Notes under the pieces: generated by a model
Told to the model about the DNA's origin: nothing
Database searches by the model: none
The model's input: only the letters and a program-made list of their open reading frames with translations
NCBI GenBank assembly: GCA_016934825.1
Contig: JAFGSB010000158.1
Coordinates: 66,842-130,841, forward strand
Direction of reading: 5' to 3'
Source of the DNA: Candidatus Zhuqueibacterota bacterium
GTDB lineage: Bacteria > Zhuqueibacterota > Zhuqueibacteria > Residuimicrobiales > Krinioviventaceae
DNA: 64,000 bases
In this document: piece after piece, positions 11,780-33,584 of the stretch
How the letters are laid out: each line of letters starts with the position of its first letter
How positions within the stretch are numbered: the stretch's first letter is position 1
Position numbers and translations under genes: made by a program

Positions 11780-11817
11780 ATTTAAAAATTCGGGAGAACA
11801 TTCAATTGTAGAAAATT

Positions 11818-13122: not shown

Positions 13123-13154
13123 ATTGTTACAAGTCACGAAAGTGAAAAGGAAAA

Positions 13155-17220: not shown

Positions 17221-18105
17221 ATGCAAATTTCTATCAACGATTTAACACAGGTATATAAAAATGGCAATCGGGCCCTGCAAAAGATCAACCTGGAAATCAG
17301 CAGCGGGATGTTCGGACTGTTGGGACCGAACGGCGCGGGGAAAACAACATTGATGCGTATCCTGGTTACGCTGATGAAACCCACAGCCGGCGCCGTCAGT
17401 GTTAACGGTTATGATCTGCAAAGAAACCGGCGGGAGATCCGCTCAATGCTCGGGTATTTACCGCAGGATTTTCAAGTTTTATCCAAATTAAAGACCTGGG
17501 AATTTCTGGATTACGTCGCCAGGCTTGCCGGCCTGAGGAGTAAAAATGAACGAAGCGCGGCTGTTGACGAAATGCTGGAAAATGTGGGTCTTTTCGACGC
17601 GCGTGACCGCAGGGCGACAAAATTATCCGGCGGCATGAAAAGAAGACTAGGGATCGCGCAGGCGCTGATCGGTCATCCGCAAATTGTCATCGTGGATGAA
17701 CCGACAACCGGTCTTGACCCGGAAGAACGTATACGGTTCCGCAATCTGCTTGCCGAACTGAGCCGGAAGGACATTGTTATTATTCTGTCCACCCATATAG
17801 TCGGTGATATTTCCAGCACCTGCATGGATATGGCACTGTTGAATAAAGGCGAGGTCATTTTTAATGACGCTCCGGAAAAACTTGTACAGGAATGCAGGGG
17901 ACATGTATGGCAGATTAACGCCCTGGACAGCGAGTTGGAAGCCATCAAAGAGAAATATCCCGTTATTTCAACCATTCCATCGGAGAACGGCTGGGAAGTG
18001 CAGATCGTCGCCGATAAACTGGCGGACTTTAAAGGTGAACAGATTGAACCCAACCTTGAGCACGCCTATGTTTACCGTATGGAATATGGTTTAAATAACA
18101 AATGA
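17221..18105 (+). CDS. ABC transporter ATP-binding protein (ABC-2 subfamily) with a C-terminal accessory domain
   Basis: Walker A LLGPNGAGKTT, signature LSGGMKRRLGIAQAL, Walker B IVIVDEPTTGLD. Confidence 0.9.
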   Translation: MQISINDLTQVYKNGNRALQKINLEISSGMFGLLGPNGAGKTTLMRILVTLMKPTAGAVSVNGYDLQRNRREIRSMLGYLPQDFQVLSKLKTWEFLDYVARLAGLRSKNERSAAVDEMLENVGLFDARDRRATKLSGGMKRRLGIAQALIGHPQIVIVDEPTTGLDPEERIRFRNLLAELSRKDIVIILSTHIVGDISSTCMDMALLNKGEVIFNDAPEKLVQECRGHVWQINALDSELEAIKEKYPVISTIPSENGWEVQIVADKLADFKGEQIEPNLEHAYVYRMEYGLNNK

Positions 18106-18142: not shown

Positions 18143-21100
18143 ATGACATCATTATATAACATTTGGGTTGTTGCCCGTTATGAAACAAAAATATTATTCA
18201 GAAGCTGGTTTTTCAGGGTACTGGCATTGATCGCCATTGGTATTCTGACCTTTCTGAATATCATTTTTTTTTCCGGCGCCGTTAAAGATGTTCCCTGGGT
18301 TTTAAGAGGTGTTCCCTCATCCATTCCATATTTTAATTTGATGATGTTAAATACCGTTCAGGCCGTATTAACTGTATTTTTGGCCTCGGATTTTCTGAAA
18401 CGGGATGTGAAAACCAATACCACAGAAGTCATTTATATGCGTTCCATGTCCAACGCCGAATATGTGCTGGGTAAAACGGGCGGAATATTAAATATATTTA
18501 TTTTACTGAATTTGATCATTTTGTTTATCGGTGCGGTTATCAATATCGCTTTTTCCGATATCGGTTTTCATTTTATCAATTACATTGTCTATTTTCTGCT
18601 TATCAGTATACCCACAATTATTTTTATTACCGGATTTACATATTTAATCATGATAATCATCCGAAATCAGCCGGTTACGCTGGTTTTAATGGTTGGTTAC
18701 ATATCGCTCTCGTTAATCTATTTACAGCATAAAGCAAATTATATATTTGATATCGTTGCCTTTTATCTGCCGTTATCCTATTCCGATTTTGTCGGCTTTG
18801 ATCAAATTTCAATTATACTTTTACAGCGGGGAATGTACCTGTTTATCGGTCTGTCGTTTATATTTTTAACAATTTTGTTTCTGAAAAGACTGCCGCAGTC
18901 AAAAATTATGCTCAGGCTGGCGCCTGTTCTGTCGGTTATTTTTATGATTACGGCAATATACTTTTGTATAACCAGCCTCGGTGTTTACAGGTCCGGTCAA
19001 TCCCTGCGAACCAATATGACGGCATTAAATGACAGGTATATTAATGAGCCGGCGGTTTCGATAACAGATTGTACGCTTGATTTTGAGCATCTGGGCGATA
19101 CTTTTTCCTGCACGGCAAACCTGAAATTCACCAACCGGGATTCCGTTCCCATAAATTCATATATTTTCAGTCTCAATCCCGGGCTTCAACTGGACAAAGT
19201 TTTACAAAATCAGCAGCAAAAGGAATTTGAGCGGCAATATCATATTATTACCATAAAACCGGAAAGGCCTTTAAATCAGGGCGAGTCCGATTCCCTGATT
19301 TTTGTGTACCGGGGCGCTCCCGATGACAACGCCTGTTACCTTGATATTGATGAACAGAAACGAAGCCGGTCGAATTATATTGTCATGTATAAAGCAGGGA
19401 AAAAGTTCAGCTTTATAACTCCCCAATATGTGCTTCTAACCCGGGAAAATTTATGGTATCCGGTTCCCGGTGTTACACATGGTTCACATCTTTACACAAA
19501 TATTAAAAAGGATTTTATTCGTTTCAAATTAAACGTAAAATTAAAGAGTGATCTTCAACCGGTATCCCAGGGTTCAATGGATAAGATGAGTGACCGTGAA
19601 TTCCGGTTTGTGCCGGAAACCCCGCTGCCGCAAATATCATTAATTATTGGAAACTATAAAAAAATATTTACCACGGTTGACAGTATTGATTATAATCTGT
19701 ATACCCTGCCGAAGCATAATTTTTATTCGCCCTATTTCACGCAAATCGGCGATACGTTGAAATCAATCATCAGCGACGCGAAAAGGGAATATGAAACAAA
19801 ACTCAATCTTGATTATCCTTTTAAGCGGTTATCCATTATTGAGGTGCCCGTACATTATATTGCCTATGACCGTCTTGTTTCGTACCACCAGGAAAACGTA
19901 CAACCGGCGCTGGTATTATTCCCGGAGAATGGGGTCAGTGTTCAGCAAGTCGATTTCAGGGCACAAATACACCGATTCGAAAGAATGGAAAGGCGCATGA
20001 ACCAGACCATTGGTGAAAAGGAAATACAGGCCCGGTTGTTCAACATGTTCGTCAATGTTTTTACGGGCGGCGTTCCCATGTTCAATCCAAACAGGAATAT
20101 TTCTGTAAATTTAAATATATTCCCAAATTATTACACTTATAAAAATGTTGTATATTCCCGGGACTGGCCTGTTTTGAACGCATCCCTTGAAGCCTATCTC
20201 AATAGTAAACTGTCGGAATCCACACCCTTTTTCGCAAGAAACTGGCAGGGAATACTGAATGAAGAAAAAGCCAATCTTGCCTTAAAAACCAGCAGTTTGA
20301 ATGAAATACTCTCCAACCCGGACAACAGGGATATTGTTAATGATGTGCTGGAAAACAAAAGTGAAATGTTGTTCAAATTGCTGACATATGTACTGGGTGA
20401 TGAACAATTCAATACATATTTAACACAATATCTCGACCGGAATCGGTTCACTTCCGTGGATTTCCTGGATTTTGTATCCGGTGTGGAGAACAAATTAAAT
20501 TTTAATTTTTATGATTTTATGCAAAAGTGGTACGGTCAAATCCAAATGCCCGGCTATTATATAGCCAATATCCAGTCATATAAAGTTCTGGACGGCAATA
20601 GAACAAGATACCAGATTCGATTTGATGTATCGAATAATGAAGATATCGACGGGTTGATAACGGTCAATTTTCGTACCAGGGGAGGCGGTGTCCGGGGCCG
20701 GTTTATGGGCGGGGGAGGAGCACGCGGCGAATCGGAACCCGAGCGGATTTATTATATTCAAAAAATGCAGACAAAACAAATCGGCATCCTCTTGGATTCA
20801 CAACCGGGAGCCATAATGATCAATTCACTGGTTTCTTTGAACCTGCCATCCGCAATTGATCGTAGATTTGAAGAATTTGATTTAAATGAAAAAGCCGTTC
20901 CTTTTGAAGGGGAAAAAATTCTGGAAAAGCCCGTAATGCTTTCGCTGCCCAATGAAATTATTGTCGATAATGAAGATGAAGGTTTTACGGTACAGGCGCA
21001 GGATGAGACAAGTCTTTTGAAAAAAATATTCAAAATGAGCAACGGTGATAAAGAAGAATATGTCGGCTTGAATATGTGGCGCGTGCCGAACAACTGGAGC

Positions 21101-21496
21101 AAGACAATTCATTCCGATTTTTATGGGCGCTATGTCCATTCCGCATATTATGTAAAGTCCGGCAATGGTTCCAAAGTGGTAACATGGAATGCCAATATTC
21201 CGGAGAGCGGCCAATATGATGTTTATTGTTATGCAAACACGATTCAGTTCCGGGGAGGACCGGGAAGAGGACGAGGAAGGGGAAGAGAAAGACAACCCAT
21301 GGCGGGCGAAATGCATTATGACGTATATCATGATGACGGTCAGGAAGAAGTGACGCTGGATATCCAATCGGCGCAGGAAGGATGGAATTTTTTAGGAACC
21401 TACTATTTGTCGGCAGGCACTGCCCAGGTCCGGTTATCGGATAAATCAAACGCACGAATGGTCGTTGCCGACGCTGTCAAGTGGGTAAAGCATTAA
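18143..21496 (+). CDS. ABC-2 family permease fused to a large M1-aminopeptidase-like extracytoplasmic domain (no HEXXH zinc motif found)
   Basis: N-terminal 300-aa multi-TM ABC-2-like region, then about 800 aa containing the M1-like segment LTYVLGDEQFNTYLTQYLDRNRFTSVDFLDFV. Two Gly/Arg-rich low-complexity inserts (GGGVRGRFMGGGGARG and GGPGRGRGRGRER). Confidence 0.7.
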   Translation: MTSLYNIWVVARYETKILFRSWFFRVLALIAIGILTFLNIIFFSGAVKDVPWVLRGVPSSIPYFNLMMLNTVQAVLTVFLASDFLKRDVKTNTTEVIYMRSMSNAEYVLGKTGGILNIFILLNLIILFIGAVINIAFSDIGFHFINYIVYFLLISIPTIIFITGFTYLIMIIIRNQPVTLVLMVGYISLSLIYLQHKANYIFDIVAFYLPLSYSDFVGFDQISIILLQRGMYLFIGLSFIFLTILFLKRLPQSKIMLRLAPVLSVIFMITAIYFCITSLGVYRSGQSLRTNMTALNDRYINEPAVSITDCTLDFEHLGDTFSCTANLKFTNRDSVPINSYIFSLNPGLQLDKVLQNQQQKEFERQYHIITIKPERPLNQGESDSLIFVYRGAPDDNACYLDIDEQKRSRSNYIVMYKAGKKFSFITPQYVLLTRENLWYPVPGVTHGSHLYTNIKKDFIRFKLNVKLKSDLQPVSQGSMDKMSDREFRFVPETPLPQISLIIGNYKKIFTTVDSIDYNLYTLPKHNFYSPYFTQIGDTLKSIISDAKREYETKLNLDYPFKRLSIIEVPVHYIAYDRLVSYHQENVQPALVLFPENGVSVQQVDFRAQIHRFERMERRMNQTIGEKEIQARLFNMFVNVFTGGVPMFNPNRNISVNLNIFPNYYTYKNVVYSRDWPVLNASLEAYLNSKLSESTPFFARNWQGILNEEKANLALKTSSLNEILSNPDNRDIVNDVLENKSEMLFKLLTYVLGDEQFNTYLTQYLDRNRFTSVDFLDFVSGVENKLNFNFYDFMQKWYGQIQMPGYYIANIQSYKVLDGNRTRYQIRFDVSNNEDIDGLITVNFRTRGGGVRGRFMGGGGARGESEPERIYYIQKMQTKQIGILLDSQPGAIMINSLVSLNLPSAIDRRFEEFDLNEKAVPFEGEKILEKPVMLSLPNEIIVDNEDEGFTVQAQDETSLLKKIFKMSNGDKEEYVGLNMWRVPNNWSKTIHSDFYGRYVHSAYYVKSGNGSKVVTWNANIPESGQYDVYCYANTIQFRGGPGRGRGRGRERQPMAGEMHYDVYHDDGQEEVTLDIQSAQEGWNFLGTYYLSAGTAQVRLSDKSNARMVVADAVKWVKH

Positions 21497-21504
21497 AAAT
21501 ATGA

Positions 21505-22983
21505 GTGAATATTATGAACGTGAGAAAAACTTTAATTTTATTTTATCTTGTCGGGTTATTTGGTTTAAAATCTTTTGCACAGCAAACTTTGACTCTTGAA
21601 GATGCATTACGTATCGCGATGGAAAACAGCCCGGATATAAAACGTTCCATGTTAAACCTGGAAAGAAGCAGGCAATCATTGAGAGCCCAGCAGGCCGCCC
21701 TGAAATCGAAATTCAGTTTATCCGTAACGCCATTTGATTTCACGCGAATCCGTCAATTCAATACATTTTTCAACACATGGAACACGAACGATTCAAAATC
21801 ATCATCAGGCAATCTCAGCGTAACACAGCCCATCAAGTGGACCGACGGCACGCTGAGTCTGATCAATAGATTCGAATGGCAGGACGCGTACAGTGAATAC
21901 AGTAATGAGCGTAATAAAACTTTTAACAATAATTTATATCTGAGTTATAATCAACCTTTATTTACATATAATCAAACCAGGCTTGACCTGCGGGAACTGG
22001 AACTGGATTTTGAGAACACCTATCTGAGTTACGCTTTACAGAAATTGGGCCTTGAGTACCAGGTTTCCTTAAACTTTTATAATGTATATAAAAATAAAAT
22101 GAGTTATCAAATCGCCGTCGAGGAATTTAATAACCAGGACCAGAGTCTTCAGATTATAAAGAACAAGGTTGACGCCGGTTTATCGGCAAAAGAAGAATTG
22201 TACCAGGCGGAATTGAATCTCGCCACCAGTAAATCAACCGTCCAGAATTCTCAGGTCACCCTGGAAAATTCACTGGACGAATTCAAGCGTCTGACCGGTA
22301 TTTCCTTAATGGAGGACATTGATGTGATCGCCGATGTTTCGCATCAACCGGTTAACGTCGATATTCAAAAAGCTTTGGATACGGGACTGGGAAAAAGAAT
22401 GGAACTGCAGCAAAGGAATATTGACATAGAAAATTCGCTGGCAAATCTCACCCGGACAAAGGCATATAATGAATTCAAGGGTGATTTAACGTTAACCTAT
22501 GGTATTATCGGCACCAATGAAGAATATGAACATATATATGATGAGGCAACCAGAAATCAAAAAGTGTCGTTATCGTTTGAGATCCCTTTATTTGATTGGG
22601 GAGAACGGAATGCCCGGATCAAGGCGGCGGAGGCTACATTGAATAATCAGCATTTGTCGATGGAAAATCAAAAAAATGATATTATTATCGGTGTCAGGCA
22701 GGCGGTCCGGGACCTGCAAAACCTTGAAGTGCAGATTGAAATCGCACGCCAGAACGTTTCAAACGCGCAACTGACCTATGAGATTAAACTGGAACAATAT
22801 AAAAACGGTGATCTGACCAGTATGGACCTGAATTTGTATCAAATTCAGTTATCGGACAGGAAAACCGGTCTGGTTAATGCCCTGATAAATTATAAACTGG
22901 CTTTATTAAATTTGAAAATTGAATCCATGTGGGATTTTGTAAGAAACGAACCGGTCATCCCGGATGTGAAAAGTTTGGATTAA
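21505..22983 (+). CDS. tolC: TolC-family outer-membrane efflux protein
   Basis: Signal peptide; two tandem OEP repeats with typical coiled-coil and LxxALxNN motifs. Confidence 0.85.
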   Translation: MNIMNVRKTLILFYLVGLFGLKSFAQQTLTLEDALRIAMENSPDIKRSMLNLERSRQSLRAQQAALKSKFSLSVTPFDFTRIRQFNTFFNTWNTNDSKSSSGNLSVTQPIKWTDGTLSLINRFEWQDAYSEYSNERNKTFNNNLYLSYNQPLFTYNQTRLDLRELELDFENTYLSYALQKLGLEYQVSLNFYNVYKNKMSYQIAVEEFNNQDQSLQIIKNKVDAGLSAKEELYQAELNLATSKSTVQNSQVTLENSLDEFKRLTGISLMEDIDVIADVSHQPVNVDIQKALDTGLGKRMELQQRNIDIENSLANLTRTKAYNEFKGDLTLTYGIIGTNEEYEHIYDEATRNQKVSLSFEIPLFDWGERNARIKAAEATLNNQHLSMENQKNDIIIGVRQAVRDLQNLEVQIEIARQNVSNAQLTYEIKLEQYKNGDLTSMDLNLYQIQLSDRKTGLVNALINYKLALLNLKIESMWDFVRNEPVIPDVKSLD

Positions 22984-23005: not shown

Positions 23006-23383
23006 TTGTTCAAAGTGTTACTTGTCGGTGCGGGAGGTTTCGTCGGTTCGGTTCTGCGCTATTCCATGAGCGGACTGGTGCATCGGATGTTGAAAAATGC
23101 GTGGTTTCCCTATGGAACTTTAACGGTAAATTTACTGGGTTGTTTTTTAATCGGTTTTTTCAATGGCCTGGCAGAATCAAAACAAATTTTTTATGCGGAA
23201 ACAAGGCTTGTATTATTTATCGGAGTTTTAGGCGGATTTACGACCTTTTCAACTTTTAGTTACGAGTCATTCAGCTTTTTGCGGGATGGACAGCTTGTAC
23301 CCGCTTTTTGGAATGTAATAATTCATGTGGTTTTTGGTTTGAGTGCGGTTTATTTTGGCGATTTTGTGTCACGTTTATTTTAG
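23006..23383 (+). CDS. crcB: Fluoride ion channel CrcB/FluC
   Basis: GAGGFVGSVLRY and GFNGLA...GGFTTFSTFS motifs of CrcB; 125 aa. Confidence 0.9.
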   Translation: MFKVLLVGAGGFVGSVLRYSMSGLVHRMLKNAWFPYGTLTVNLLGCFLIGFFNGLAESKQIFYAETRLVLFIGVLGGFTTFSTFSYESFSFLRDGQLVPAFWNVIIHVVFGLSAVYFGDFVSRLF

Positions 23384-23392
23384 GAGAGAACG

Positions 23393-23734
23393 ATGAAGCT
23401 ACCCGACCAGGGACATTTGTTACGTATATTTATCGGTGAGAGCGATAAACATGAACACATGCCCCTGTATGAATGGATTGTCCGAAAGGCCCGGGAATGT
23501 GGTCTTGCCGGCGCTACGGTTATCAGGGGACTGCAGGGTTTCGGTCCCACCAGCCGGGTGTACACAACTAAAATTCTGCGTTTATCGGAAGATCTGCCGA
23601 TCATTATCGAAATTGTCGACACCATAGAAAAAATAGATAACTTTTGGCCCGTCATTCAGGATGTTATTCCTGAAGGGCTGGTCACCATCGAAAAAGTCCA
23701 GATTAAATTCTATCGAGGCGGCAAAATCTCCTGA
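23393..23734 (+). CDS. DUF190 domain protein (P-II-like fold, crcB-associated)
   Basis: HLLRIFIGESDKHEHMPLYEWIV...GATVIRGLQGFG is typical of DUF190, which is often adjacent to crcB. Confidence 0.75.
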   Translation: MKLPDQGHLLRIFIGESDKHEHMPLYEWIVRKARECGLAGATVIRGLQGFGPTSRVYTTKILRLSEDLPIIIEIVDTIEKIDNFWPVIQDVIPEGLVTIEKVQIKFYRGGKIS

Positions 23735-23778
23735 CAATGTCAATTCATTTAACTTATATAGCAATGAGGTAAAAACCT

Positions 23779-24827
23779 TGAAAAAATTAATTTTATTACT
23801 GATAATCCTGATATTCTTTTTGGCTTGCAACAGACAGGATTCCAATGTTGACCTTCAGATTGCTATTCCCGTTTCGGTCGAAGAAATAAAATATAAGCCG
23901 ATTGAGGAATTTGTAACGGCAACCGGAACCGTATATGCAATTCAGGAAGTTGACCTGAAAGCGGAAACCCCGGGATTTTATCGTCTGGCTGAAAATAAAA
24001 CAACCGGGAGACCTTTTACTCTTGGTGAACAGATCAAAAAAGGTGAGATCATCATATACCTTGATAACCCCGAGCTGGAAAACAGCATAAAAATTGAATC
24101 CCAGAAGCTGAACCTGGACATATCGGAACGGGAATTCGAAAAGCAAAAATCTTTATATGAAAAGGGCGGCGTGACGCTGCGGGAATTAAAAAATGCCGAG
24201 ATAAGCTTTATCGACGCACAATATAACTATGAAAGCGCATTGTTACAGCTTGCCAAAACAAAAGTTATTGCACCTTTTGACGGTATTATTATTGATTTGC
24301 CTTATCACACGGAAGGGACACGTGTAACGACGGATTCGCGAATGGTTCAGCTTATGAATTATAAAAGATTATATTCGGAATTCAACTTGCCGGGGAAAGA
24401 CCTGCCGCAAATCAAGGCCGATCAGCGGGTCAGGGTCATGAATTATTCCGTGCCGGATGATACGCTGTGGGGAAAGGTGACCCAGGTCGCGCCGGCCTTT
24501 GATCCGGACAGCCGGTCTTTTAAAACGTCGATCGAAGTGGATAATTCGCAAATGATTTTCCGTCCGGGTATGTTTATCAAGGCCGAAATTATCGTCGCGC
24601 ATGAAGACAGCGCTATTGTTATACCCAAAGATATTATACTGGCACAGGGTGATGAAAAATGGGTATATACCGTTGTAAAGGGCGCCGCCGACCGACGCAG
24701 GATAACTACCGGTATTGAAAATCCCCTTGAGGTACAGGTTCTGGAGGGATTAAAAGTAGAAGAACGACTGGTTGTGAAAGGTTTTGAAACCTTACAGCGT
24801 AATTCCAAAGTAAAAATAATTCGATAA
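23779..24827 (+). CDS. Efflux RND periplasmic adaptor subunit (HlyD/MFP family) lipoprotein
   Basis: Lipobox FLACN; coiled-coil, barrel-sandwich and beta-barrel regions. The ORF track start (23661) overlaps DUF190, so an internal TTG at 23779 is the likely start. Confidence 0.8.
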
Positions 24828-24854: not shown

Positions 24855-27800
24855 ATGGAAAATATTACAAAATTTTCGGTAAAGTATCCGGTAACGATTT
24901 TAATGCTGATATTGGCTGTGTTGTTACTGGGTTACATTTCATTTAAAAAACTGGGGATAGACCTGTTCCCGGATTTAAACAATCCCCGGATATTTGTTGA
25001 AATAAAAGCCGGAGAACGCCCCCCGGAGGAGATTGAAAAACAGTTTGTTGAAAATATCGAATCCCTGGCAATCCGGCAGCGTAACGCGATACAGGTTTCG
25101 TCGATATCCCGGGTCGGCTCGGCGCAAATTACCGTTGAATATACCTGGGAAACCGACATGGACGAGGCGTTTCTGGATTTGCAAAAAGCCCTGACCGGAT
25201 ACAGCCAGAACAGCGATATTGACAATATAAGTATTTCGCGGCATGATCCCAATTCGGCGCCGGTTATGCTGGTTGGTTTTTCGAATCCGCAGATTACCGA
25301 TATGGATGAATTGCGCCGGGTCGCTGAAAATTATATACGAAATGAATTGATCCGTCTGGAGGGAGTTGCCGAGGTAGAATTGCTGGGTTATGAAGTCAAA
25401 GAGGCCGTCATCGAAACAAACAATTATCTGCTTGAGGCTTATGGTTTAACAACAGATGAAGTGACAAACCGGGTTATGAATTTTAACCGTAATATGTCGG
25501 GCGGTTCAATCGAGGAGATGGGGCGAAAGTATATCATCAAGGGGGTCGGAGAAATAAAATCCCTGCAGGACATAGAAAATGTTATCGTGACTTATAAAAA
25601 TGCGGAACAAAATGTTTCCGCAGGCAATGAAGCGATATCTAAACGAATTCCGGTATTTTTAAAAGATATCGCGACGGTCAGATTAATAAACAAGGATCCG
25701 GAAAATATCATACATGTAAACGGCAACAGGTGTATGGCGCTGGCAATTTACAAAGAAACAAAGTACAATACGGTTAAAGCGTCAACAACCCTCCTGGATA
25801 AGCTAAATGAACTGAGAAAAGCCCTGCCCGGCTACGAATTGTTTGTTATCAGCAACCAGGGAGAGTTTATCACCAAATCGATAAACGAAGTCAAGCAAAC
25901 AGCGTTGATCGGGATTCTGCTGGCCGTGCTGGTGCTGTTCGTATTTTTACGCCGTATCGGGGTTACGGTTATTATCAGTCTTGCGATCCCGATTTCCGTG
26001 GTAGCTACATTTAATCTCTTGTATTTCAAAGGATTAACATTGAATATTATGACCCTGGGCGGACTCGCGCTCGGAGCGGGTATGCTGGTTGATAATGCCA
26101 TAATCGTCATGGAAAATATTTACCGGAACCTGGAAGAAGGAATGTCCTTAAAAGAAGCCGCCATTACCGGAACGGCGCGGGTGGGAGGGGCCATAACGGC
26201 TTCGACTTTGACGACAATTGTCGTTTTTTTACCCATTGTCTATTTGCATGGAACCGCTGGAGAATTATTCAAGGACCAGGCCTGGACGGTCGCTTTTTCT
26301 TTGTTATCGTCGCTGGTCGTGGCGATTCTGGTTATTCCGATGTTGAGTGTCTGGTTGTTGAAAAGGGAAGAAAATTATAAATATCAAACCATTACATTTC
26401 CAAAATACAGAACCTTTCTGGACAGAATGCTGAATAAATCGGGAATGATCATTCTGGGCGCGATAGCGCTCGTTATTATTGCAGTACTGCTTGTGCCTAT
26501 TGTGGGCAGCGAGTTTATCCCCAAAACGGATTCCGATGAGTTCTCAATTAATCTAAAACTGCCGGAAGGGACCGAATTAAGGCGCACGGAAAGTACCGTC
26601 AGGAATATTGAGGATATGGTCAAACAATTGTTTGGCGATAATATTTTAACGGTTTACAGTAAAATAGGACCGTCTGCAAGTCTTACCGGCATCGACAATG
26701 AGGCTTATGAGGATGAAAATACGGCAACCGTATTGATCAAGCTGGATAAAAACCGGAAAATCGGCAGCGAGGAGATTATTAACCGGCTGTCTTTATCTAT
26801 CGGCGCCATTCCCGATATTGAGGCGGAATTTATTCAGGAACAAACCGAACTGCAAACCACATTAGGGACGGATGCGGCTCCAATTGTGCTGGAAATAAAG
26901 GGGAACGACCTAAAGGTGATCCAGAATTTGACCGAACAGGCCGCTGAAAAACTGGAAAATATGAATGATTTATTCAATATTGCTACCAGTTTCGACGAAG
27001 GCCGGCCGGAAGTCGATGTGGTGATTGACAGGGTCCGGGCTGGATTATTAAATGTAAGCATCAATACGATAAGCGATCAGCTTACAAGCCAATTGGCCGG
27101 TCAGGAAGCCGGGCAATGGCAAAACGATGGAGAATTGCAGGATATAATCGTTAAATTGCCCAAAGTTGATATTAAGCAGTTATCGGGTATTACCCTTCAA
27201 TCCGGTGATCAGAAAATCAGCCTGGACGACGTGACGGATATAAGAATAACCCAGACAACCAATGAAATATACCGCAGGAACCAGACCCGGATCGGGAAGA
27301 TAACCGCTCATATCAGGTCGGATAAACCATTTGATTCTATCGTTAAGCGTATAGATGATGAAATGAGCACTATTACCTATCCACCCGACTACAAGTATGA
27401 AATTACCGGCGAAGAACTGAAAAGGAGGGAAGCGTTCGATAATTTGAAATTCGCGCTTTTATTATCGATCATTCTTGTGTATATGGTTATGGCGTCGCAA
27501 TTCGAATCGCTTGTTCATCCCTTTATTATTTTATTTACCATACCGCTGGCCGGAGTCGGTTCCGTGTTTCTGTTTTTTATATTGGGAAAAAGTTTTAATG
27601 TAATGGCATATATCGGAATCATCATGCTTGCGGGTATAGCGGTGAATGATTCGATTATTCTGATCGATGCGATAAACCAGTTAAAGAGCCAGGGACGGAA
27701 ACAGCGGGACGCGATCCTGACCGCCGCGCAGTGGAGAATTCGTCCCATTATTATGACCAGTTTGACCACCATTCTCGCGCTTTTTCCTCTGACCATCGGT

Positions 27801-27944
27801 TTCGGTGAGGGCGCTTCTTTACGCGCGCCGCTGGCGATGGCTGTTATCGGAGGTTTGATCAGTTCGACAATTCTGACATTAATTGTTATACCCTGTGTGT
27901 ATTGGCTGGTTGACAGATTAACTCATCCTGCTTTTGTTGACTAA
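24855..27944 (+). CDS. Efflux RND transporter permease (AcrB/HAE family)
   Basis: 1029 aa, 12-TM topology with two large periplasmic loops; conserved TM4 and TM10 regions. Confidence 0.9.
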   Translation: MENITKFSVKYPVTILMLILAVLLLGYISFKKLGIDLFPDLNNPRIFVEIKAGERPPEEIEKQFVENIESLAIRQRNAIQVSSISRVGSAQITVEYTWETDMDEAFLDLQKALTGYSQNSDIDNISISRHDPNSAPVMLVGFSNPQITDMDELRRVAENYIRNELIRLEGVAEVELLGYEVKEAVIETNNYLLEAYGLTTDEVTNRVMNFNRNMSGGSIEEMGRKYIIKGVGEIKSLQDIENVIVTYKNAEQNVSAGNEAISKRIPVFLKDIATVRLINKDPENIIHVNGNRCMALAIYKETKYNTVKASTTLLDKLNELRKALPGYELFVISNQGEFITKSINEVKQTALIGILLAVLVLFVFLRRIGVTVIISLAIPISVVATFNLLYFKGLTLNIMTLGGLALGAGMLVDNAIIVMENIYRNLEEGMSLKEAAITGTARVGGAITASTLTTIVVFLPIVYLHGTAGELFKDQAWTVAFSLLSSLVVAILVIPMLSVWLLKREENYKYQTITFPKYRTFLDRMLNKSGMIILGAIALVIIAVLLVPIVGSEFIPKTDSDEFSINLKLPEGTELRRTESTVRNIEDMVKQLFGDNILTVYSKIGPSASLTGIDNEAYEDENTATVLIKLDKNRKIGSEEIINRLSLSIGAIPDIEAEFIQEQTELQTTLGTDAAPIVLEIKGNDLKVIQNLTEQAAEKLENMNDLFNIATSFDEGRPEVDVVIDRVRAGLLNVSINTISDQLTSQLAGQEAGQWQNDGELQDIIVKLPKVDIKQLSGITLQSGDQKISLDDVTDIRITQTTNEIYRRNQTRIGKITAHIRSDKPFDSIVKRIDDEMSTITYPPDYKYEITGEELKRREAFDNLKFALLLSIILVYMVMASQFESLVHPFIILFTIPLAGVGSVFLFFILGKSFNVMAYIGIIMLAGIAVNDSIILIDAINQLKSQGRKQRDAILTAAQWRIRPIIMTSLTTILALFPLTIGFGEGASLRAPLAMAVIGGLISSTILTLIVIPCVYWLVDRLTHPAFVD

Positions 27945-30900
27945 AATTAGCGGACATATGAATTTTTTCGGATCTTTAATAAAACGTAAAGTTTTTATCA
28001 GTATGCTTTTTGTGGGGCTGTGCCTTTTGGGTATTGTCTCCTATAAACAGCTTCCGGTTGAATTATTCCCCAACGCCGAACTCCCTTTTTTAATAGTTCA
28101 GGTCAGTTCCGTCCAGGAAATGGACCCGGAGTATCTTGAAAAACAGGCCATTGTGCCCGTCGAAGGAGTTATTACAACACTGGACGGGATTGAAAAGATT
28201 GAATCATACGTGGAAAGACGCCGGGGGATTGTTTTTGTATATTTCAATCAGAAAACCAAAATTAAATATGCCTATTTAAAGCTCGAAGAAAAAATAAATT
28301 CGATCAAAGCGTCGCTTGGCGATGAATTTTTTGTAACGGTTTTTAAGGTCGATACGGATCAGATTGCCAATATGTTCATGACCCTGCAGGTCCGCGGCAG
28401 CGGCGGTTTGAACAGGGTGAGGGAGGTTATCGATCAAAAAGTGACCCCGGAGTTACAAAATATCGACGGCATCGCCAATGTGGAGATCTTTGGCGGACAG
28501 CAAAAATCAATTGAGATCATTCTGGATGAACAGGCATGCCGCGCCCATGGAATTACCCCCGCGACAATCCGTTCCATAATTTCAGGTAATAATAAATATA
28601 AATCATTTGCCGGTAAAGTATACAGTGAAGATAAATATTATTTTGTCAATGTTACGGCCGATTATGGAAATGTCGAAGATATTGAAAATATTATTGTGGA
28701 CAGCAACGGCCCGGTTTTTCTAAAAGATATCGCGGATGTGTATTTTGGCGTTAAAGAACAGACAACCATCAGCCGCGTTAACGGCAAGGAAGCCATAACC
28801 ATTCAACTCATAAGAGATACGCAGGTAAATCTGATTGATCTATCGCATAAAACAAAAAGGATTATCAAACAGTTAAATGAAAATCTGGCGCCGGATGATG
28901 TAGAAGTTGTGATTCAAAGTGATTCCGCCGAAATTGTGGAAAAAAATATTCATCTCATCATACAGCTTGCTCTGGTCGGCGGGTTGCTGGCCGTCGTCAT
29001 CCTCTGGATATTTTTACGTAACATGCGGCTGGTTTTGATCATTGCATTATCCATGCCTGTTTCCATTTTCACCGCATTTAATTTTTTCTATGCGTTCGGT
29101 ATAACCATCAATAGTCTGACCCTTGTCGGAATGGCGCTGGCAATCGGTATGCTGCTGGATAACAGCGTGGTGGTATTGGAAAATATATACCGAATCTTTG
29201 CCAATTACAAGAATCCCGATCAGGCGGTTGTCCAGGGAACCGGTGAGGTATGGCGGTCCATACTGGCAGCCACATTGACCACAATTACGGTTTTTCTCCC
29301 GTTTGCCTTTGCGTCCAACTTTTTAATCAAATTGCTTGGCCGTCATATCGGCGTATCCATTATTTCAACCCTCGGAGTTTCGCTTGTTATTGCATTTTTA
29401 CTCATCCCTATGGCCGCATATATAATTTTAAAGAATTTAAAAAAGGATTCTCCCGTTAATTTTCAATTCGTTTCGCATAATAACAGGCTGTTGCAAATTT
29501 ATAATGTTGTGTTAAAATCGTGCCTTCGTTTTCCCGCCAGAACGATAATCGGTACAATTTTTTTATTTTTTGTAAGTTTGATGATCTGTCTTGCCCTCAG
29601 TATAAATATACCTCGGGAAACGGAAGTTAAGGAATTTAATCTGTACTTGACCATGCCGCGCGGTTCAACCCTGGAATCGACCGATGCGGCAACGGCCGAA
29701 CTCGAAAAACTGCTGGAGAATATAAAGGAAAAAGATGAGATCATCAGCAAAATATATGAAGAGGAATCAATTGTAACCATAAAATTAAAGGATAATTATT
29801 ATAATATTGATAACCGGTCTATACCGCAAATCAAGGAAAAGTTAGAAAAAACCATTAATGATTTTCGCGTGGCGGATGTCAGTTTTGACCAGCCCCAGTC
29901 GGGAGGACGTTTCAGGGGCGGGGCGGGACAAAACCCGGGCCTCGGTCTCGAAAATCTGCTGGGTATCGGCAGCCAGAACGAGCGGGTTGTGATTAAGGGC
30001 AATGATTTCGAAAAGATGCGAAATATCGCTGATGATATTCGAGATTATATTGCCGATCTGACAACCGTTAGTAATACGAATATCAATATGTCCGACGACC
30101 GCCCGGAAATTCAATTGTTATTAGATAAACAATTATTAAGTCAATTCAATGTTTCGTTGAATGCCATCGCCGGCGAGTTATCAACATTTGAAAATGAGTT
30201 CTCATCTAATATTAAATTCAAACAGAATACCGAAGAATATGATATTATCATTAAAACCAATAATGAAAAACAAAAGTCTTTCGATGATCTGCAAAATATT
30301 CGTATCCCGTCTGAAACCGGCGGAGAATACGAACTGGACAACCTCAGCCGTATTATTTACTCGCAGGGCATTTCCGGGATCAATCGTGTCAACCAGGAAA
30401 AACAAATAGAAATTACCTATAGATTTATCAGCGAGGTAACCGCGTCAAAGGAGTATCTGAATTCGGCGAGAAGCGAAATCGACCAGATTATCGCGAATCT
30501 GAACCTGCCGTCCGGAATAGCCGTCGAGGTCATTCATGACAGCAGTGAACTGCAGGAATTTTATTTTTTGATTGGCGCTACGTTTATATTAATTTTTATG
30601 ATCCTCGCATCCGTTTTCGAATCATTATCGACGCCGTTTGTAATTATGTTTACCATTCCGCTGGCGGCGATTGGCTCCCTGTGGGCGCTGATCCTGACCG
30701 GGAACTCTATACTGAATGCCAACACGTTGATCGGATTTATTATTTTGCTGGGGGTTGTCGTGAATAACGGTATTATTTATATCGACTATACGCGAATATT
30801 GATCCGCAAAAAATATAAAAGGTCCCGCGCGTTAATGATGGCAGGACGGGCGCGGGTCCGGCCGATTTTGATCACCGCTATTACGACCATCATTGCCATG

Positions 30901-32634
30901 CTGCCGCTGGCAATGGGAAAATCCGAATACGTCGCCCAAATCGGCGCTCCGTTTGCTATAACGGTGATTGGCGGCTTGTCGCTCAGCACATTGTTTACAC
31001 TTGTTTTTATACCGACGTTTTATTCCGGTCTTGATACGGCCCTGAGATGGTTATATCAATTGAACTGGAAAATCAAACTATTGCAGATAATCGCATTTGT
31101 AACAGGGTGCGTGCTTGTATATTATCATGTTGAAAGTTTCCTGTGGCGTTTTATCGATCTGCTTTTGTTATTGCTGGTTATACCTTCAATAACCCTGTTC
31201 ATTTTTAAGAGTCTGCGACGCGCCAGGGCCGATTATATAAAACCGGACCGGGAATTGAAAATCAAAGTCCGGCAGCTTGTAAAAATATACGATGATTACA
31301 GCCGATTTAGCCGGGAATGGAACAAGGGGAAAAAAATACGGGAAAGAGCGGAAATCAGCAAGGAATATAAAACCCGGAAAGATATTGAACATCTTTTATG
31401 GGAATTGCCGCTGCTTATTTTTCTTTTCTACTTTACCTATCTTTATTTGAGAAGCTATTTCTGGATGTTTGTTCTTTCTCATTTTGTTTATTTTTATGTC
31501 TTTTACCTGCTCGGACCGTTCCTCAGTCAATTAAGGAACGGGTTGCTGGCAAAAAGAATCTATTCGTTGGTTTATTGGGGTGTGCCGTTATTGAATTTGA
31601 TCTACTTCTACATTCGCTGGAAAAATATCCCGGCGTTGATTTTCATCGCCGTAATCTGGACGCTGGCCCTGGCAGTGTATATCACATCCAATAAACTTCA
31701 CCGGGAAAAGGTGGATATTGTACGTCTGGGTGGAAAGTTTAAAAAGATTCGGCAGAATTTTTATCGGCTGGTGCAAATAATACCCGTAATCGGACGTAAA
31801 AAGTCTCCGTTTAAAGCCCTGGACGGGATTTCACTGGAGATTGGCAGCGGTATGTTCGGTCTGCTAGGACCGAACGGCGCCGGTAAAACAACATTGATGA
31901 GAATAATATGCGGCATCCTTGAACAGAGCCGCGGCAAGATTTGGGTAAACGATATCGCTCTTGAAGAAAAACGCGAGGAATTACAGGGTTTGATCGGGTA
32001 CTTACCCCAGGAATTCGGCATGTACGAAAATATGACCGCATTCGAATTTCTGGATTACCAGGCATTATTAAAGGGTATCCTTGATAATGAGCAGCGGGAA
32101 AAACGTATAGACTATGTCCTGTCCGCCGTACACATGCAGGAAAGCCGGAACCAGAAAATCGAATCTTTTTCCGGGGGCATGAAACAGCGCATCGGTATCG
32201 CGCAGACATTGTTGCATTTACCGCGCATACTGGTCGTGGATGAACCCACTGCAGGTCTCGATCCGAGGGAACGGATCCGTTTTCGTAATTTGCTGGTCGA
32301 ACTCGGACGCGAGCGGATTGTCATTTTTTCGACACATATCATCGAAGATATTGCCAGTTCCTGCAACAAAGTTGCGGTTTTGAACCTGGGTAAACTCGTA
32401 TATCTTGGCACGCCGACACAAATGGTGAAAATTGCGCAAAATAATGTCTGGCATTTTTATTTAAGTGCGGATGAATTTAAAGAAAAAAGCGCTGATTTGA
32501 CAATTGTACACCATATGCGTATTAAAGACAGAATTCGAATCCGCTGCCTGGCAAATGAAAAACCGTATCCCGACGCGGTACAGGTGAAACCGACGCTTGA
32601 AGACGCCTATTTGTGGTTGTTACGTAATGAATAA
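27934..32634 (+). CDS. RND transporter permease fused in frame to four extra TM helices and a C-terminal ABC ATPase domain
   Basis: Residues 1 to about 1035 form a complete AcrB-like RND. A roughly 200-aa basic/amphipathic linker with about 4 TM helices follows. Residues from about 1290 form an ABC ATPase (GLLGPNGAGKTT, FSGGMKQRIGIAQTL, ILVVDEPTAGLD) about 50% identical to ORF 17221. Single uninterrupted ORF; its start overlaps the upstream RND stop. Confidence 0.85.
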   Translation: MLTKISGHMNFFGSLIKRKVFISMLFVGLCLLGIVSYKQLPVELFPNAELPFLIVQVSSVQEMDPEYLEKQAIVPVEGVITTLDGIEKIESYVERRRGIVFVYFNQKTKIKYAYLKLEEKINSIKASLGDEFFVTVFKVDTDQIANMFMTLQVRGSGGLNRVREVIDQKVTPELQNIDGIANVEIFGGQQKSIEIILDEQACRAHGITPATIRSIISGNNKYKSFAGKVYSEDKYYFVNVTADYGNVEDIENIIVDSNGPVFLKDIADVYFGVKEQTTISRVNGKEAITIQLIRDTQVNLIDLSHKTKRIIKQLNENLAPDDVEVVIQSDSAEIVEKNIHLIIQLALVGGLLAVVILWIFLRNMRLVLIIALSMPVSIFTAFNFFYAFGITINSLTLVGMALAIGMLLDNSVVVLENIYRIFANYKNPDQAVVQGTGEVWRSILAATLTTITVFLPFAFASNFLIKLLGRHIGVSIISTLGVSLVIAFLLIPMAAYIILKNLKKDSPVNFQFVSHNNRLLQIYNVVLKSCLRFPARTIIGTIFLFFVSLMICLALSINIPRETEVKEFNLYLTMPRGSTLESTDAATAELEKLLENIKEKDEIISKIYEEESIVTIKLKDNYYNIDNRSIPQIKEKLEKTINDFRVADVSFDQPQSGGRFRGGAGQNPGLGLENLLGIGSQNERVVIKGNDFEKMRNIADDIRDYIADLTTVSNTNINMSDDRPEIQLLLDKQLLSQFNVSLNAIAGELSTFENEFSSNIKFKQNTEEYDIIIKTNNEKQKSFDDLQNIRIPSETGGEYELDNLSRIIYSQGISGINRVNQEKQIEITYRFISEVTASKEYLNSARSEIDQIIANLNLPSGIAVEVIHDSSELQEFYFLIGATFILIFMILASVFESLSTPFVIMFTIPLAAIGSLWALILTGNSILNANTLIGFIILLGVVVNNGIIYIDYTRILIRKKYKRSRALMMAGRARVRPILITAITTIIAMLPLAMGKSEYVAQIGAPFAITVIGGLSLSTLFTLVFIPTFYSGLDTALRWLYQLNWKIKLLQIIAFVTGCVLVYYHVESFLWRFIDLLLLLLVIPSITLFIFKSLRRARADYIKPDRELKIKVRQLVKIYDDYSRFSREWNKGKKIRERAEISKEYKTRKDIEHLLWELPLLIFLFYFTYLYLRSYFWMFVLSHFVYFYVFYLLGPFLSQLRNGLLAKRIYSLVYWGVPLLNLIYFYIRWKNIPALIFIAVIWTLALAVYITSNKLHREKVDIVRLGGKFKKIRQNFYRLVQIIPVIGRKKSPFKALDGISLEIGSGMFGLLGPNGAGKTTLMRIICGILEQSRGKIWVNDIALEEKREELQGLIGYLPQEFGMYENMTAFEFLDYQALLKGILDNEQREKRIDYVLSAVHMQESRNQKIESFSGGMKQRIGIAQTLLHLPRILVVDEPTAGLDPRERIRFRNLLVELGRERIVIFSTHIIEDIASSCNKVAVLNLGKLVYLGTPTQMVKIAQNNVWHFYLSADEFKEKSADLTIVHHMRIKDRIRIRCLANEKPYPDAVQVKPTLEDAYLWLLRNE

Positions 32635-33386: not shown

Positions 33387-33584
33387 TTATTTAAGATTGA
33401 TTTTAATGGAATTTCCCGATTTTTGAAAATCCAGTTTATCTTCCCGCGCCAGCCAGCCGATCGCGGCGTGTAATGTAAAATCATTCGAATTGACTAATTT
33501 TTTTAATTGCGTCAAGGTCATCGGTCCTTTTTTATTTAATAATTCCCACACATTCCCGGCCAATACACCAATTTCATTTTTCAT
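33387..33584 (-). CDS. Winged-helix DNA-binding protein (DUF2582-like)
   Basis: 65-aa ORF; ELLNKKGPMTLTQLKK wHTH-like; convergent with the efflux locus. Confidence 0.55.
   Translation of the reverse strand: MKNEIGVLAGNVWELLNKKGPMTLTQLKKLVNSNDFTLHAAIGWLAREDKLDFQKSGNSIKINLK

What the first reader, a model, noticed from the sequence alone, without database searches (positions are those of the whole stretch)
27934..32634. Single polypeptide fusing a complete RND permease to extra TM helices and an ABC ATPase domain
The 1566-aa ORF is uninterrupted, with no stop or frameshift between the RND and ABC portions. Its first ~1035 residues form a canonical AcrB-type RND transporter, which is proton-motive-force driven. 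A ~200-aa basic segment and four additional TM helices follow. The C-terminal ~280 residues are a complete ABC ATPase with Walker A, signature and Walker B motifs. Primary (ATP) and secondary (PMF) transporter modules are not normally covalently joined. The start codon overlaps the upstream RND stop (ATGA-type coupling), consistent with co-translation in one envelope machine.
Basis: partly seen in the sequence, partly recalled or inferred. Interest (0 to 1): 0.85.

Follow-up and report, generated by a model that had tools for sequence, protein, structure and literature searches.

The report
RND efflux permease fused to ABC ATPase
One real, widely conserved gene joins a proton-driven RND efflux permease to the ATP-burning subunit of an ABC exporter, inside a fixed seven-gene envelope-transport cassette of uncultured FCB-group bacteria that nobody appears to have studied.

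Summary
The ORF is real and uninterrupted. It most likely starts at ATG 27958 (1558 aa). It carries a full-length RND permease (ACR_tran, E 1.7e-175) and a complete ABC ATPase with all catalytic motifs.

It is not an assembly chimera. The same single ORF occurs in 57 of 64 informative genome loci and in 29 metagenome loci. These come from KSB1, Calditrichota, Bacteroidota, Ignavibacteriota, Latescibacterota and relatives. One clade has split the gene secondarily.

- There are six extra TM helices, not four: a 2-TM hairpin, then a 4-TM bundle inserted inside the ATPase between strands β1 and β2.
- There is no ATGA overlap in this window; the spacer is 13 nt.
- Both RND paralogues lack the AcrB-type Asp408 and Lys940.

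The gene sits in a strictly conserved cassette: ATPase, ABC-2 permease with a dead M1-peptidase-like ectodomain, outer-membrane factor, adaptor, RND1, the RND2–ATPase fusion, and the permease.

My preferred reading is an ABC exporter physically tethered to a tripartite RND pump for two-stage export. That mechanism is inferred, not shown. I found no literature on it.

The parts
17221..18105 (+). NBD_A: free-standing ABC ATPase (294 aa), a paralogue of the fused ATPase
   Evidence: Pfam ABC_tran E 1.6e-32. It is 41% identical to the fused NBD over 273 aa, E 2e-74. All catalytic motifs are present in 60/60 homologues. It is conserved as the first gene of the cassette in the metagenome loci.
18143..21496 (+). 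TMD_A: ABC-2-type permease (about 6-7 N-terminal TM helices) fused to a large M1-peptidase-like ectodomain without catalytic motifs and a Golvesin_C domain (1117 aa)
   Evidence: Hydropathy shows the TM helices within residues 26-277. Six of 10 homologues hit PF12679 ABC2_membrane_2, best E 7e-6. Pfam Golvesin_C E 3.2e-18; Peptidase_M1 is weak. HExxH and GxMEN are found in 0/69 homologues. IMG names homologues 'NosY-type permease'.
21505..22983 (+). Outer-membrane factor (TolC family)
   Evidence: Pfam OEP E 2.5e-44. TIGR01844 E 8e-27. Syntenic in nearly all loci.
23661..24827 (+). Periplasmic adaptor (membrane fusion protein)
   Evidence: TIGR01730 RND_mfp scores 186.7 bits against a cutoff of 94.9. 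Syntenic.
24855..27944 (+). RND1: first RND permease paralogue (1029 aa), 28% identical to RND2
   Evidence: ACR_tran E 5.7e-215. Alignment with RND2: 300 identities. TM4 is 'DN' and TM10 is 'ND'.
27958..31047 (+). RND2 core of the fusion protein (residues 1-1030): 12-TM RND permease
   Evidence: ACR_tran matches 7-1023. Best solved relative is MdtB, E 1.5e-73. TM4 D401-N402 and TM10 N936-N937. 'NN' is found in 88/92 homologues.
31066..31221 (+). Extra 2-TM hairpin after TM12 (residues ~1037-1088). In the split clade it stays with the RND gene.
   Evidence: Hydropathy. AF2 helices at tail residues 14-34 and 38-65, pLDDT ~83-93. The split-clade RND genes of 1097-1101 aa end after this hairpin.
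31255..31296 (+). Displaced β1 strand of the ATPase (LKIKVRQLVKIYDD, with an A-loop-type aromatic Tyr)
   Evidence: AF2 strand at tail residues 79-88. K86 is invariant and Y88 nearly invariant. It matches the N-terminus of NBD_A, ISINDLTQVY. Excision test: joining it to the rest of the NBD moves profile matches from position 15-18 to 1-2 and adds 2-12 bits.
31375..31707 (+). 4-TM helical bundle inserted inside the ATPase between β1 and β2 (residues ~1140-1250)
   Evidence: AF2 helices at tail residues 117-140, 144-167, 172-198 and 201-227, pLDDT ~80-93. Hydropathy. Conserved W/F/Y/P positions. A search of 1.84e9 representatives found the linker only in this family: 106 hits.
31810..32634 (+). 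Remainder of the ABC ATPase (NBD_B) with a C-terminal domain, plus the stop codon
32659..33384 (+). perm241: 6-TM type V (ABC-2) permease, the presumed membrane partner of the fused ATPase

Best explanation
Shown:
- The fusion gene is genuine and old.
- RND2, the second of two RND permease paralogues of a tripartite pump (outer-membrane factor, adaptor, RND1, RND2), continues after TM12 into a 2-TM hairpin and then into the ATPase subunit of a NosFY-like, type V (ABC-2) exporter.
- That ATPase is catalytically intact. It carries a 4-TM bundle inserted between its first two β-strands, so it is membrane-anchored twice.
- The gene after the fusion encodes the cognate 6-TM permease.
- The cassette also always encodes a second, 41%-identical ATPase and a second ABC-2 permease with a large catalytically dead M1-like/Golvesin_C ectodomain.

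Inferred:
- The seven products form one inner-membrane supercomplex in which an ABC-2 exporter is held against an RND1/RND2 heterotrimer.
- The ABC module uses ATP to move an amphipathic substrate out of the cytoplasm or inner leaflet to the periplasmic face.
- The RND trimer captures it there, where RND pumps normally load, and expels it through the adaptor and outer-membrane channel.
- Fusion guarantees 1:1 co-assembly and hand-over.
- A trimer with one RND2 would carry one tail, whose ATPase could pair with the free paralogue NBD_A. That would give one heteromeric ABC unit per pump: NBD_A + NBD_B with TMD_A + perm241.

The substrate is unknown.
For: - ORF continuity and domain content.
- Fusion conserved as one ORF in 57 of 64 informative GTDB-species loci and in 29 metagenome loci fetched through a different gene. 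Full-length representatives of 1550-1587 aa carry the linker at ~1025-1305, down to 27% identity.
- Catalytic residues of the fused ATPase are invariant in 121 homologues.
- Even numbers of TM helices and basic cytoplasmic loops keep all ATPase parts on the cytoplasmic side.
- β1 is displaced by the insertion.
- perm241 has a type V permease fold. The ATPase is closest to TM_1403 and NosF.
- The fusion gene's stop and perm241's start overlap or abut in many loci.
- The seven-gene order is invariant in about 150 loci from several phyla.
- The split clade keeps both halves intact and adjacent, which indicates a complex that survives without the covalent link.
- Two tandem RND paralogues with one adaptor parallel MdtABC, which works as a B2C heterotrimer. 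Inner-membrane pumps are known to feed tripartite pumps via the periplasm (PMC4338810).
Against: - No experiment, complex model or co-evolution analysis shows contact or substrate hand-over between the ABC and RND parts.
- The substrate is unknown, and no biosynthetic or regulatory gene is conserved next to the cassette.
- Stoichiometry is unresolved: RND trimer against ATPase dimer.
- Both ATPases have fully canonical sites, so nothing marks them as an obligate heterodimer.
- TMD_A and perm241 are not detectably homologous by profile comparison.
- Both RND paralogues lack Asp408 and Lys940 equivalents, so ordinary proton coupling of the RND part is itself unproven.
- The 4-TM insertion matched no solved membrane domain.
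Confidence: 0.5

Rival explanations
1. ATP-driven or ATP-gated RND pump. The tethered ATPase dimerises, with another tail or with NBD_A. Through the hairpin and 4-TM bundle it mechanically drives or licenses the conformational cycle of the RND trimer. It thereby replaces or supplements a degenerate proton relay. perm241 and TMD_A serve as stators or coupling elements rather than as a separate translocation path.
For: - Both RND paralogues have D-N in TM4 and N-N or N-D in TM10 where AcrB/MdtB have D-D and K-N.
- The ATPase is covalently attached directly after TM12, and its catalytic residues are under strict conservation.
- The 4-TM insertion puts part of the ATPase into the membrane next to the RND TM domain.
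Against: - The TM4 Asp and the TM11 R-x-R-P arginines are retained in about 95% of homologues, so a reduced proton relay may still work. Metal-type RNDs such as ZneA also lack Lys940 (alignment).
- A complete, separate ABC-2 permease partner is present and is translationally coupled to the ATPase. That is what a normal ABC exporter looks like.
- The split clade shows the covalent link is dispensable.
- No precedent for an ATPase driving an RND cycle is known to me.
Confidence: 0.13
2. Co-localisation only. Two (or three) transporters that act on related substrates or in the same pathway are kept together by gene fusion for co-expression and co-assembly. There is no direct substrate hand-over or energetic coupling. 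Alternatively, the ABC-2 modules serve the assembly, maintenance or regulation of the pump.
For: - Fusion and fission both occur, as is typical of subunits that merely need equal dosage.
- Both ABC halves look like ordinary ABC-2 systems.
- The ectodomain of TMD_A is a non-catalytic binding-type module.
Against: - Strict seven-gene synteny across several phyla, with no observed instance of the linker-bearing ATPase or the M1-like permease outside the cassette, argues for one functional unit.
- A dedicated hairpin and the insertion are conserved at sequence level. That is more than a dosage link would need.
Confidence: 0.3
3. Artefact: a chimeric contig, a lost stop codon, or a frameshift error has joined two neighbouring genes in this assembly.
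For: - A minority of loci (7 of 64) show the RND2 part broken into pieces, so errors or pseudogenes do occur in this family.
Against: - The same single ORF with the same junction sequence occurs in 57 + 29 loci assembled independently from different samples and phyla.
- The junction (hairpin, β1) is conserved at protein level.
- Composition shows no break.
- The broken cases also have RND1 broken and come largely from long-read assemblies.
Confidence: 0.01

Closest known systems
MdtABC-TolC / MuxABC-type RND pumps with two permease paralogues
   Same: Two tandem RND permease genes follow one adaptor gene, with an outer-membrane factor in the operon. MdtB is the best solved match of RND2. MdtBC works as a B2C heterotrimer with unequal roles (PMC4338810).
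   Different: RND1 and RND2 are only 28% identical. Both lack Asp408 and Lys940. RND2 carries a 530-aa tail with six TM helices and an ABC ATPase. NCBIfam MdtB/MdtC cutoffs are far from met.
NosDFY (NosF ATPase, NosY permease) and other type V / ABC-2 exporters (ABCG, ABCA, Wzm-Wzt, TarGH, PmtCD, Rv1217c-1218c)
   Different: There are no nos genes. The ATPase has a 4-TM insertion between β1 and β2 and is fused to an RND permease. One permease carries a dead M1-like/Golvesin_C ectodomain. Sequence-level family thresholds are not met.
MacAB-TolC and DevBCA-type ATP-driven tripartite pumps
   Same: An ABC ATPase is encoded in one operon with an adaptor and an outer-membrane factor, forming an envelope-spanning exporter.
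   Different: MacB is a type VII ABC protein with 4 TM helices and a periplasmic core domain, and it is the sole inner-membrane engine. Here the permeases have the type V fold and two RND permeases are present as well.
ArsAB arsenite pump (own knowledge, not tested here)
   Same: It is the classical case of a secondary carrier (ArsB) that joins an ATPase (ArsA). This is a conceptual precedent for primary and secondary energy modes in one exporter.
   Different: The ATPase family is unrelated (ArsA is not an ABC protein). There is no RND, no covalent fusion, and no outer-membrane components.
Small TM partners of RND pumps (AcrZ, YajC; own knowledge)
   Same: Extra TM helices pack against the RND TM domain. 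This is a possible analogy for the hairpin after TM12.
   Different: Those are separate small proteins without any enzymatic domain. No homology was tested or found.

Membership tests
RND permease superfamily (Pfam ACR_tran, PF00873) | Full-length match to the 12-TM, two-ectodomain RND profile | tested here: met
   Residues 7-1023 match profile positions 5-1018 of 1021, 586 bits against a cutoff of 28.
HAE1-type (AcrB/MexB/MdtB) proton-driven multidrug RND | TM4 Asp407-Asp408, TM10 Lys940 and TM11 Arg971 proton relay | tested here: not met
   RND2 has D401-N402 and N936-N937. The Arg motif RARVRP is kept. The same pattern is found in 90/92 (DN) and 88/92 (NN) RND2 homologues, and DN in 94/101 RND1 homologues.
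HAE1-type (AcrB/MexB/MdtB) proton-driven multidrug RND | NCBIfam subfamily or equivalog score cutoffs (RND_permease_1/2, MdtB, MdtC, AcrB) | tested here: not met
   Best is RND_permease_2 at 499.8 bits against a cutoff of 1250. MdtB scores 288.5 against 1584.
Tripartite RND efflux system | Adaptor (MFP) and outer-membrane factor genes in the same operon | tested here: met
   RND_mfp scores 186.7 bits against a cutoff of 94.9. OEP E 2.5e-44. Syntenic in about 150 loci.
Heteromeric RND (MdtB2C-like) | Two different permease subunits in one trimer with fixed stoichiometry | not testable with these tools
   Only the tandem paralogue arrangement is seen.
ABC ATPase (PF00005) | Walker A, Q-loop, LSGGQ-type signature, Walker B with catalytic Glu, D-loop, H-loop | tested here: met
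ABC ATPase (PF00005) | Contiguous nucleotide-binding fold (β1 directly followed by β2 and the P-loop) | tested here: not met
   β1 (1100-1113) is separated from β2 (1284-1295) by about 170 residues containing 4 TM helices. The excision test restores a full-length profile match.
Type V / ABC-2 exporter (NosFY-like) | 6-TM permease with the type V fold, encoded next to the ATPase | tested here: met
Type V / ABC-2 exporter (NosFY-like) | Significant sequence match of the permease to Pfam ABC2_membrane families | tested here: inconclusive
   perm241 family: only 2-3 of 14 members match, with E 0.004-0.3. TMD_A family: 6 of 10 match, best E 7e-6.
GldA / DrrA ATPase equivalogs | NCBIfam cutoff for TIGR03522 (GldA) or TIGR01188 (DrrA) | tested here: not met
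   177.7 bits against 402.6, and 162.4 against 312.45. After excision the GldA score is 187.6.
MacB-type (type VII) tripartite ABC pump | 4-TM permease with a MacB periplasmic core domain fused to the ATPase | tested here: not met
   No MacB_PCD or FtsX match was found in the tail or in perm241. The fold matches are type V.
M1 aminopeptidase (for the neighbouring TMD_A protein) | HExxH zinc motif and GxMEN exopeptidase motif | tested here: not met
   0 of 69 homologues have either motif. The Pfam Peptidase_M1 match covers only the profile's C-terminal part, at 26.9 bits against a cutoff of 27.7.

The most novel reading that the evidence does not exclude
The cassette builds a single dual-energy machine. 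ATP hydrolysis by the RND-tethered ABC ATPase is mechanically transmitted through the hairpin and the intramembrane 4-TM insertion to an RND trimer. The proton relay of that trimer is degenerate (no Asp408, no Lys940). The RND pump would then be ATP-driven or ATP-gated. This would be the first RND transporter not energised solely by ion gradients.
Probability: 0.12. Interest if true: 0.95.

Novelty: new variant of a known kind. Interest (0 to 1): 0.72.

Why it matters
RND pumps (ion-gradient driven) and ABC exporters (ATP driven) are treated as alternative engines of envelope-spanning efflux. Cooperation between inner-membrane pumps and tripartite pumps has so far been inferred from genetics and kinetics, not from physical linkage.

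Here evolution has welded the two together and kept them so across several phyla. This gives three things:
- A natural 'Rosetta stone' showing that an ABC-2 exporter and an RND pump act as one unit.
- A defined complex for structural work on how substrates pass from one transporter class to the other.
- A test case for whether an RND cycle can be coupled to ATP.

Two further features are unusual. The ATPase has transmembrane helices inserted inside its fold. An ABC-2 permease carries a dead M1-peptidase-like ectodomain.

The carriers are abundant uncultured sediment and anaerobe lineages (KSB1, Calditrichota, Bacteroidales and others), so the substrate may be an envelope or secreted component specific to the FCB group.

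Tried and rejected
- Assembly chimera or frameshift: rejected by conservation of the single ORF in 86 loci.
- ATGA translational coupling to RND1: rejected for this window.
- Tail as a plain linker plus a separate TM domain: rejected by the AF2 secondary structure, the comparison with NBD_A and the excision test.
- GldA, DrrA or MacB membership: scores are below cutoffs or the fold type is wrong.
- Homology of TMD_A with perm241: the hhalign probability of 2.5% is not significant, and BLAST finds nothing.
- Sequence search of perm241 against PDB: nothing found.
- The afdb50 fold library was not available.
- Exact look-up of the window's perm241 in the contig index found nothing. The source organism was still obtained, from 100%-identical NCBI proteins of a candidate division KSB1 MAG.
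- The promoter/terminator scan of the operon was uninformative.
- Six literature searches for an RND-ABC fusion, or for this cassette, found nothing relevant.
- P0321 and P0281 were considered as possible free-standing ancestors of the inserted ATPase. They look like fragments or internal gene calls that still contain the end of the hairpin.
Full report
**The observation.** The + strand ORF 27934..32634 is open throughout. Pfam places ACR_tran on residues 7-1023 (E 1.7e-175) and ABC_tran on residues 1289-1432 (E 6.5e-29) of the same polypeptide, numbering from ATG 27958. The mechanical ORF starts at TTG 27934. However, ATG 27958 gives the canonical RND N-terminus (MNFF...), and an ATG is aligned with it in 25 of 27 homologous loci. 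The upstream RND gene ends with TAA at 27942-27944, which leaves a 13-nt spacer. Base composition shows no discontinuity across the gene.

**Not an artefact.** A search with the 535-aa tail returned thousands of proteins. Most were contig-truncated, and many carried both PF00873 and PF00005. A scan of one genome per GTDB species with a profile of the linker alone gave 80 loci. In 16 of them the contig ends inside the gene. Of the other 64, 57 have one uninterrupted reading frame with 1016-1076 aa upstream of the linker. All but five of those, which the contig or locus end cuts within the ATPase, continue for 536-653 aa from the start of the linker. The remaining 7 are broken into pieces. In several of them RND1 is broken as well, and several are long-read assemblies. 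A second set of 80 metagenome loci was fetched through a different gene, the C-terminus of the M1-like protein. In all 29 loci that reach that far, RND2 again runs directly into the linker. An exhaustive HMMER search of 1.84 billion cluster representatives with the 272-aa linker found only 106 hits. The complete ones are 1550-1587 aa with the linker at about 1025-1305, down to 27% identity. Carriers are labelled KSB1, Calditrichota, Bacteroidales/Bacteroidota, Cytophagia, Melioribacteraceae, Latescibacterota, Zixibacteria, Krumholzibacteriota and Gemmatimonadota. The window itself comes from a candidate division KSB1 MAG; NCBI proteins JXQ31_18530 and JXQ31_18565 are 100% identical to two of its products.

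**Anatomy of the tail.**
- Hydropathy and an AlphaFold2 model built on 121 sequences (pLDDT 85.4, pTM 0.70) agree on the layout.
- After TM12 comes a 2-TM hairpin (residues ~1037-1088), followed by a basic cytoplasmic stretch.
- Next is a 10-residue β-strand within LKIKVRQLVKIYDD (1100-1113) and a short helix.
- Four long TM helices follow (~1140-1250), then a helix, and then the ATPase from strand β2 onward (1284-1558).
- The isolated strand is β1 of the ATPase, on three grounds. It aligns with the N-terminus of the free paralogue (ISINDLTQVY). Its Lys is invariant and its A-loop-type Tyr nearly invariant. When it is joined in silico to residues 1281-1558, NCBIfam ATPase profiles match from position 1-2 instead of 15-18 and gain 2-12 bits.
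- All other strands of the model lie in the ATPase. A DSSP strand assignment for 1102-1111 therefore implies that it pairs with the ATPase sheet (inference).
- The even numbers of helices (2 and 4) and the basic loops keep every ATPase segment cytoplasmic.
- I know of no described ABC ATPase with such an insertion (own knowledge). The helices matched nothing in the PDB.

**The cassette.** The fusion gene is the sixth gene of an invariant set:
1. A free ABC ATPase (17221..18105), 41% identical to the fused one over its whole length, with all motifs in 60/60 homologues.
2. A 1117-aa protein (18143..21496). Its N-terminal ~280 residues hold about 6-7 TM helices, and homologues hit ABC2_membrane_2 (6 of 10, best E 7e-6). 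Its ectodomain has a weak M1-peptidase match and a Golvesin_C domain but lacks HExxH and GxMEN in 69/69 homologues.
3. An outer-membrane factor.
4. An adaptor.
5. RND1.
6. The RND2-ATPase fusion.
7. The 241-aa permease.

Only this window has a crcB fluoride-channel gene inserted between the outer-membrane factor and the adaptor. No other neighbouring gene is conserved. Every one of the 80 best relatives of the M1-like protein sits in this cassette. NCBI labels these proteins hypothetical, and IMG gives the NosY COG to both permeases.

**Fission clade.** The closest relatives of the tail (64-69% identity) are 483-aa proteins. In L002/L003 and L164 the RND gene (1097-1101 aa) ends after the hairpin. 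The ATPase gene, with β1, the insertion and the rest, starts 16-25 nt later. The junction DNA shows how this arose. The β1-coding segment is tandemly duplicated. The first copy has decayed and ends in a stop. The new ATG is carved out of the '...KIYD' codons (aaa att tATGATg) of that copy. The split is therefore derived from the fused state. Both halves stay intact and adjacent, as expected for subunits of a stable complex.

**The RND halves.** RND2's best solved relative is MdtB (E 1.5e-73), and RND1 and RND2 share 28% identity. Where MdtB/AcrB have Asp-Asp in TM4 and Lys-Asn in TM10, RND2 has D401-N402 and N936-N937, and RND1 has D-N and N-D. Across homologues, TM4 'DN' occurs in 90/92 RND2 and 94/101 RND1. 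TM10 'NN' occurs in 88/92 RND2, while RND1 splits into 'NN' (51) and 'ND' (42). The TM11 R-x-R-P motif is kept. The proteins are therefore not canonical HAE1 pumps. They also miss the NCBIfam cutoffs by a wide margin. Whether one Asp plus the arginines suffices for proton coupling cannot be decided here.

**Mechanism.**
- Shown: a covalent and ancient link between an RND permease and the ATPase of an ABC-2 exporter; a cognate permease; a second paralogous ATPase/permease pair; and the tripartite components, all inherited as one block.
- Inferred (confidence about 0.5): these form one supercomplex in which the ABC module extracts or flips an amphipathic substrate with ATP, and the RND1/RND2 trimer takes it from the periplasmic face and expels it through the adaptor and channel. 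This fits two things known from the literature: RND pumps load from the periplasm or outer leaflet, and inner-membrane pumps potentiate tripartite pumps (PMC4338810).
- The trimer-versus-dimer mismatch would be solved most simply by an MdtB2C-like 2:1 trimer carrying one tail. Its ATPase would pair with the free paralogue, giving one heteromeric ABC unit per pump. Two homodimeric ABC units remain equally possible.
- Rivals: mere co-localisation or dosage coupling (0.3); an ATP-driven or ATP-gated RND (0.13), made thinkable by the missing relay residues; and artefact (0.01).

**Novelty.** Six full-text searches found no paper on an RND-ABC fusion or on this cassette. The library does not cover most subscription journals. 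The architecture is visible to automatic annotation; IMG names one homologue 'AcrB/ABC-type multidrug transport system ATPase subunit'. It is thus known to databases but apparently not to the literature. The parts belong to known kinds. Their obligatory union, the intramolecular TM insertion in the ATPase and the dead-peptidase permease make it a new variant with a real chance of new mechanism. I score interest at 0.72.

Noticed in passing
window 23006..23383 (+): A crcB fluoride-exporter gene (TIGR00494 E 7e-29) sits between the outer-membrane factor and the adaptor genes. It is present only in this window. In all other loci the two genes are adjacent, so this looks like a recent insertion into the operon.
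   Followed up: partly
window 18143..21496 (+): This is an ABC-2-type permease fused to a ~800-aa ectodomain with an M1-peptidase-like region and a Golvesin_C domain. HExxH and GxMEN are absent in all 69 homologues examined, so it is a pseudo-peptidase and presumably a binding module. NCBI annotates it as hypothetical. One Gemmatimonadota contig carries two tandem copies (P0420, P0469).
   Followed up: partly
L002 8980..9170; L164 9950..10080: In the split clade the gene fission arose by tandem duplication of the β1-coding segment. The first copy decayed to a stop, and a new ATG was recruited from the KIYD codons.
   Followed up: yes
L002 2867..5784; L164 2904..3338: Other insertions occur inside the cassette. 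L002 has about 2.9 kb of small ORFs, including a Polbeta nucleotidyltransferase, between RND1 and RND2. L164 has a 23S_rRNA_IVP-family gene between the adaptor and RND1.
   Followed up: no
L028 9575..12361: In one long-read Bacteroidales assembly the ATPase reading frame continues into the perm241 homologue, giving one 929-aa ORF. The same locus has several frameshifts, so this is probably an error rather than a further fusion.
   Followed up: no
window 29902..29940 (+): RND2 has a Gly-rich stretch (GGRFRGGAGQNPG) in its periplasmic part. From memory of the AcrB sequence I read it as the counterpart of the AcrB switch (G-) loop. No alignment to AcrB over this stretch was made. In the RND1/RND2 alignment it falls in a gap of RND1. 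Similar RGG-rich stretches occur in the ectodomain of the M1-like protein (residues ~845-862 and ~1037-1050).
   Followed up: no
window 10400..14420 (+): Three genes resemble glycolate oxidase GlcD/E/F (FAD_binding_4, FAD-oxidase_C, CCG/4Fe-4S). They are followed by an α/β-hydrolase gene and a LOG-family gene. Only the closest relative (L084) shares the hydrolase and LOG genes upstream of the cassette.
   Followed up: no
window 33387..33584 (-): A 65-aa DUF2582 winged-helix protein is encoded convergently, 2 nt after the permease gene. It is also present in the closest relative, L010, but not elsewhere. It could be a local regulator.
   Followed up: no
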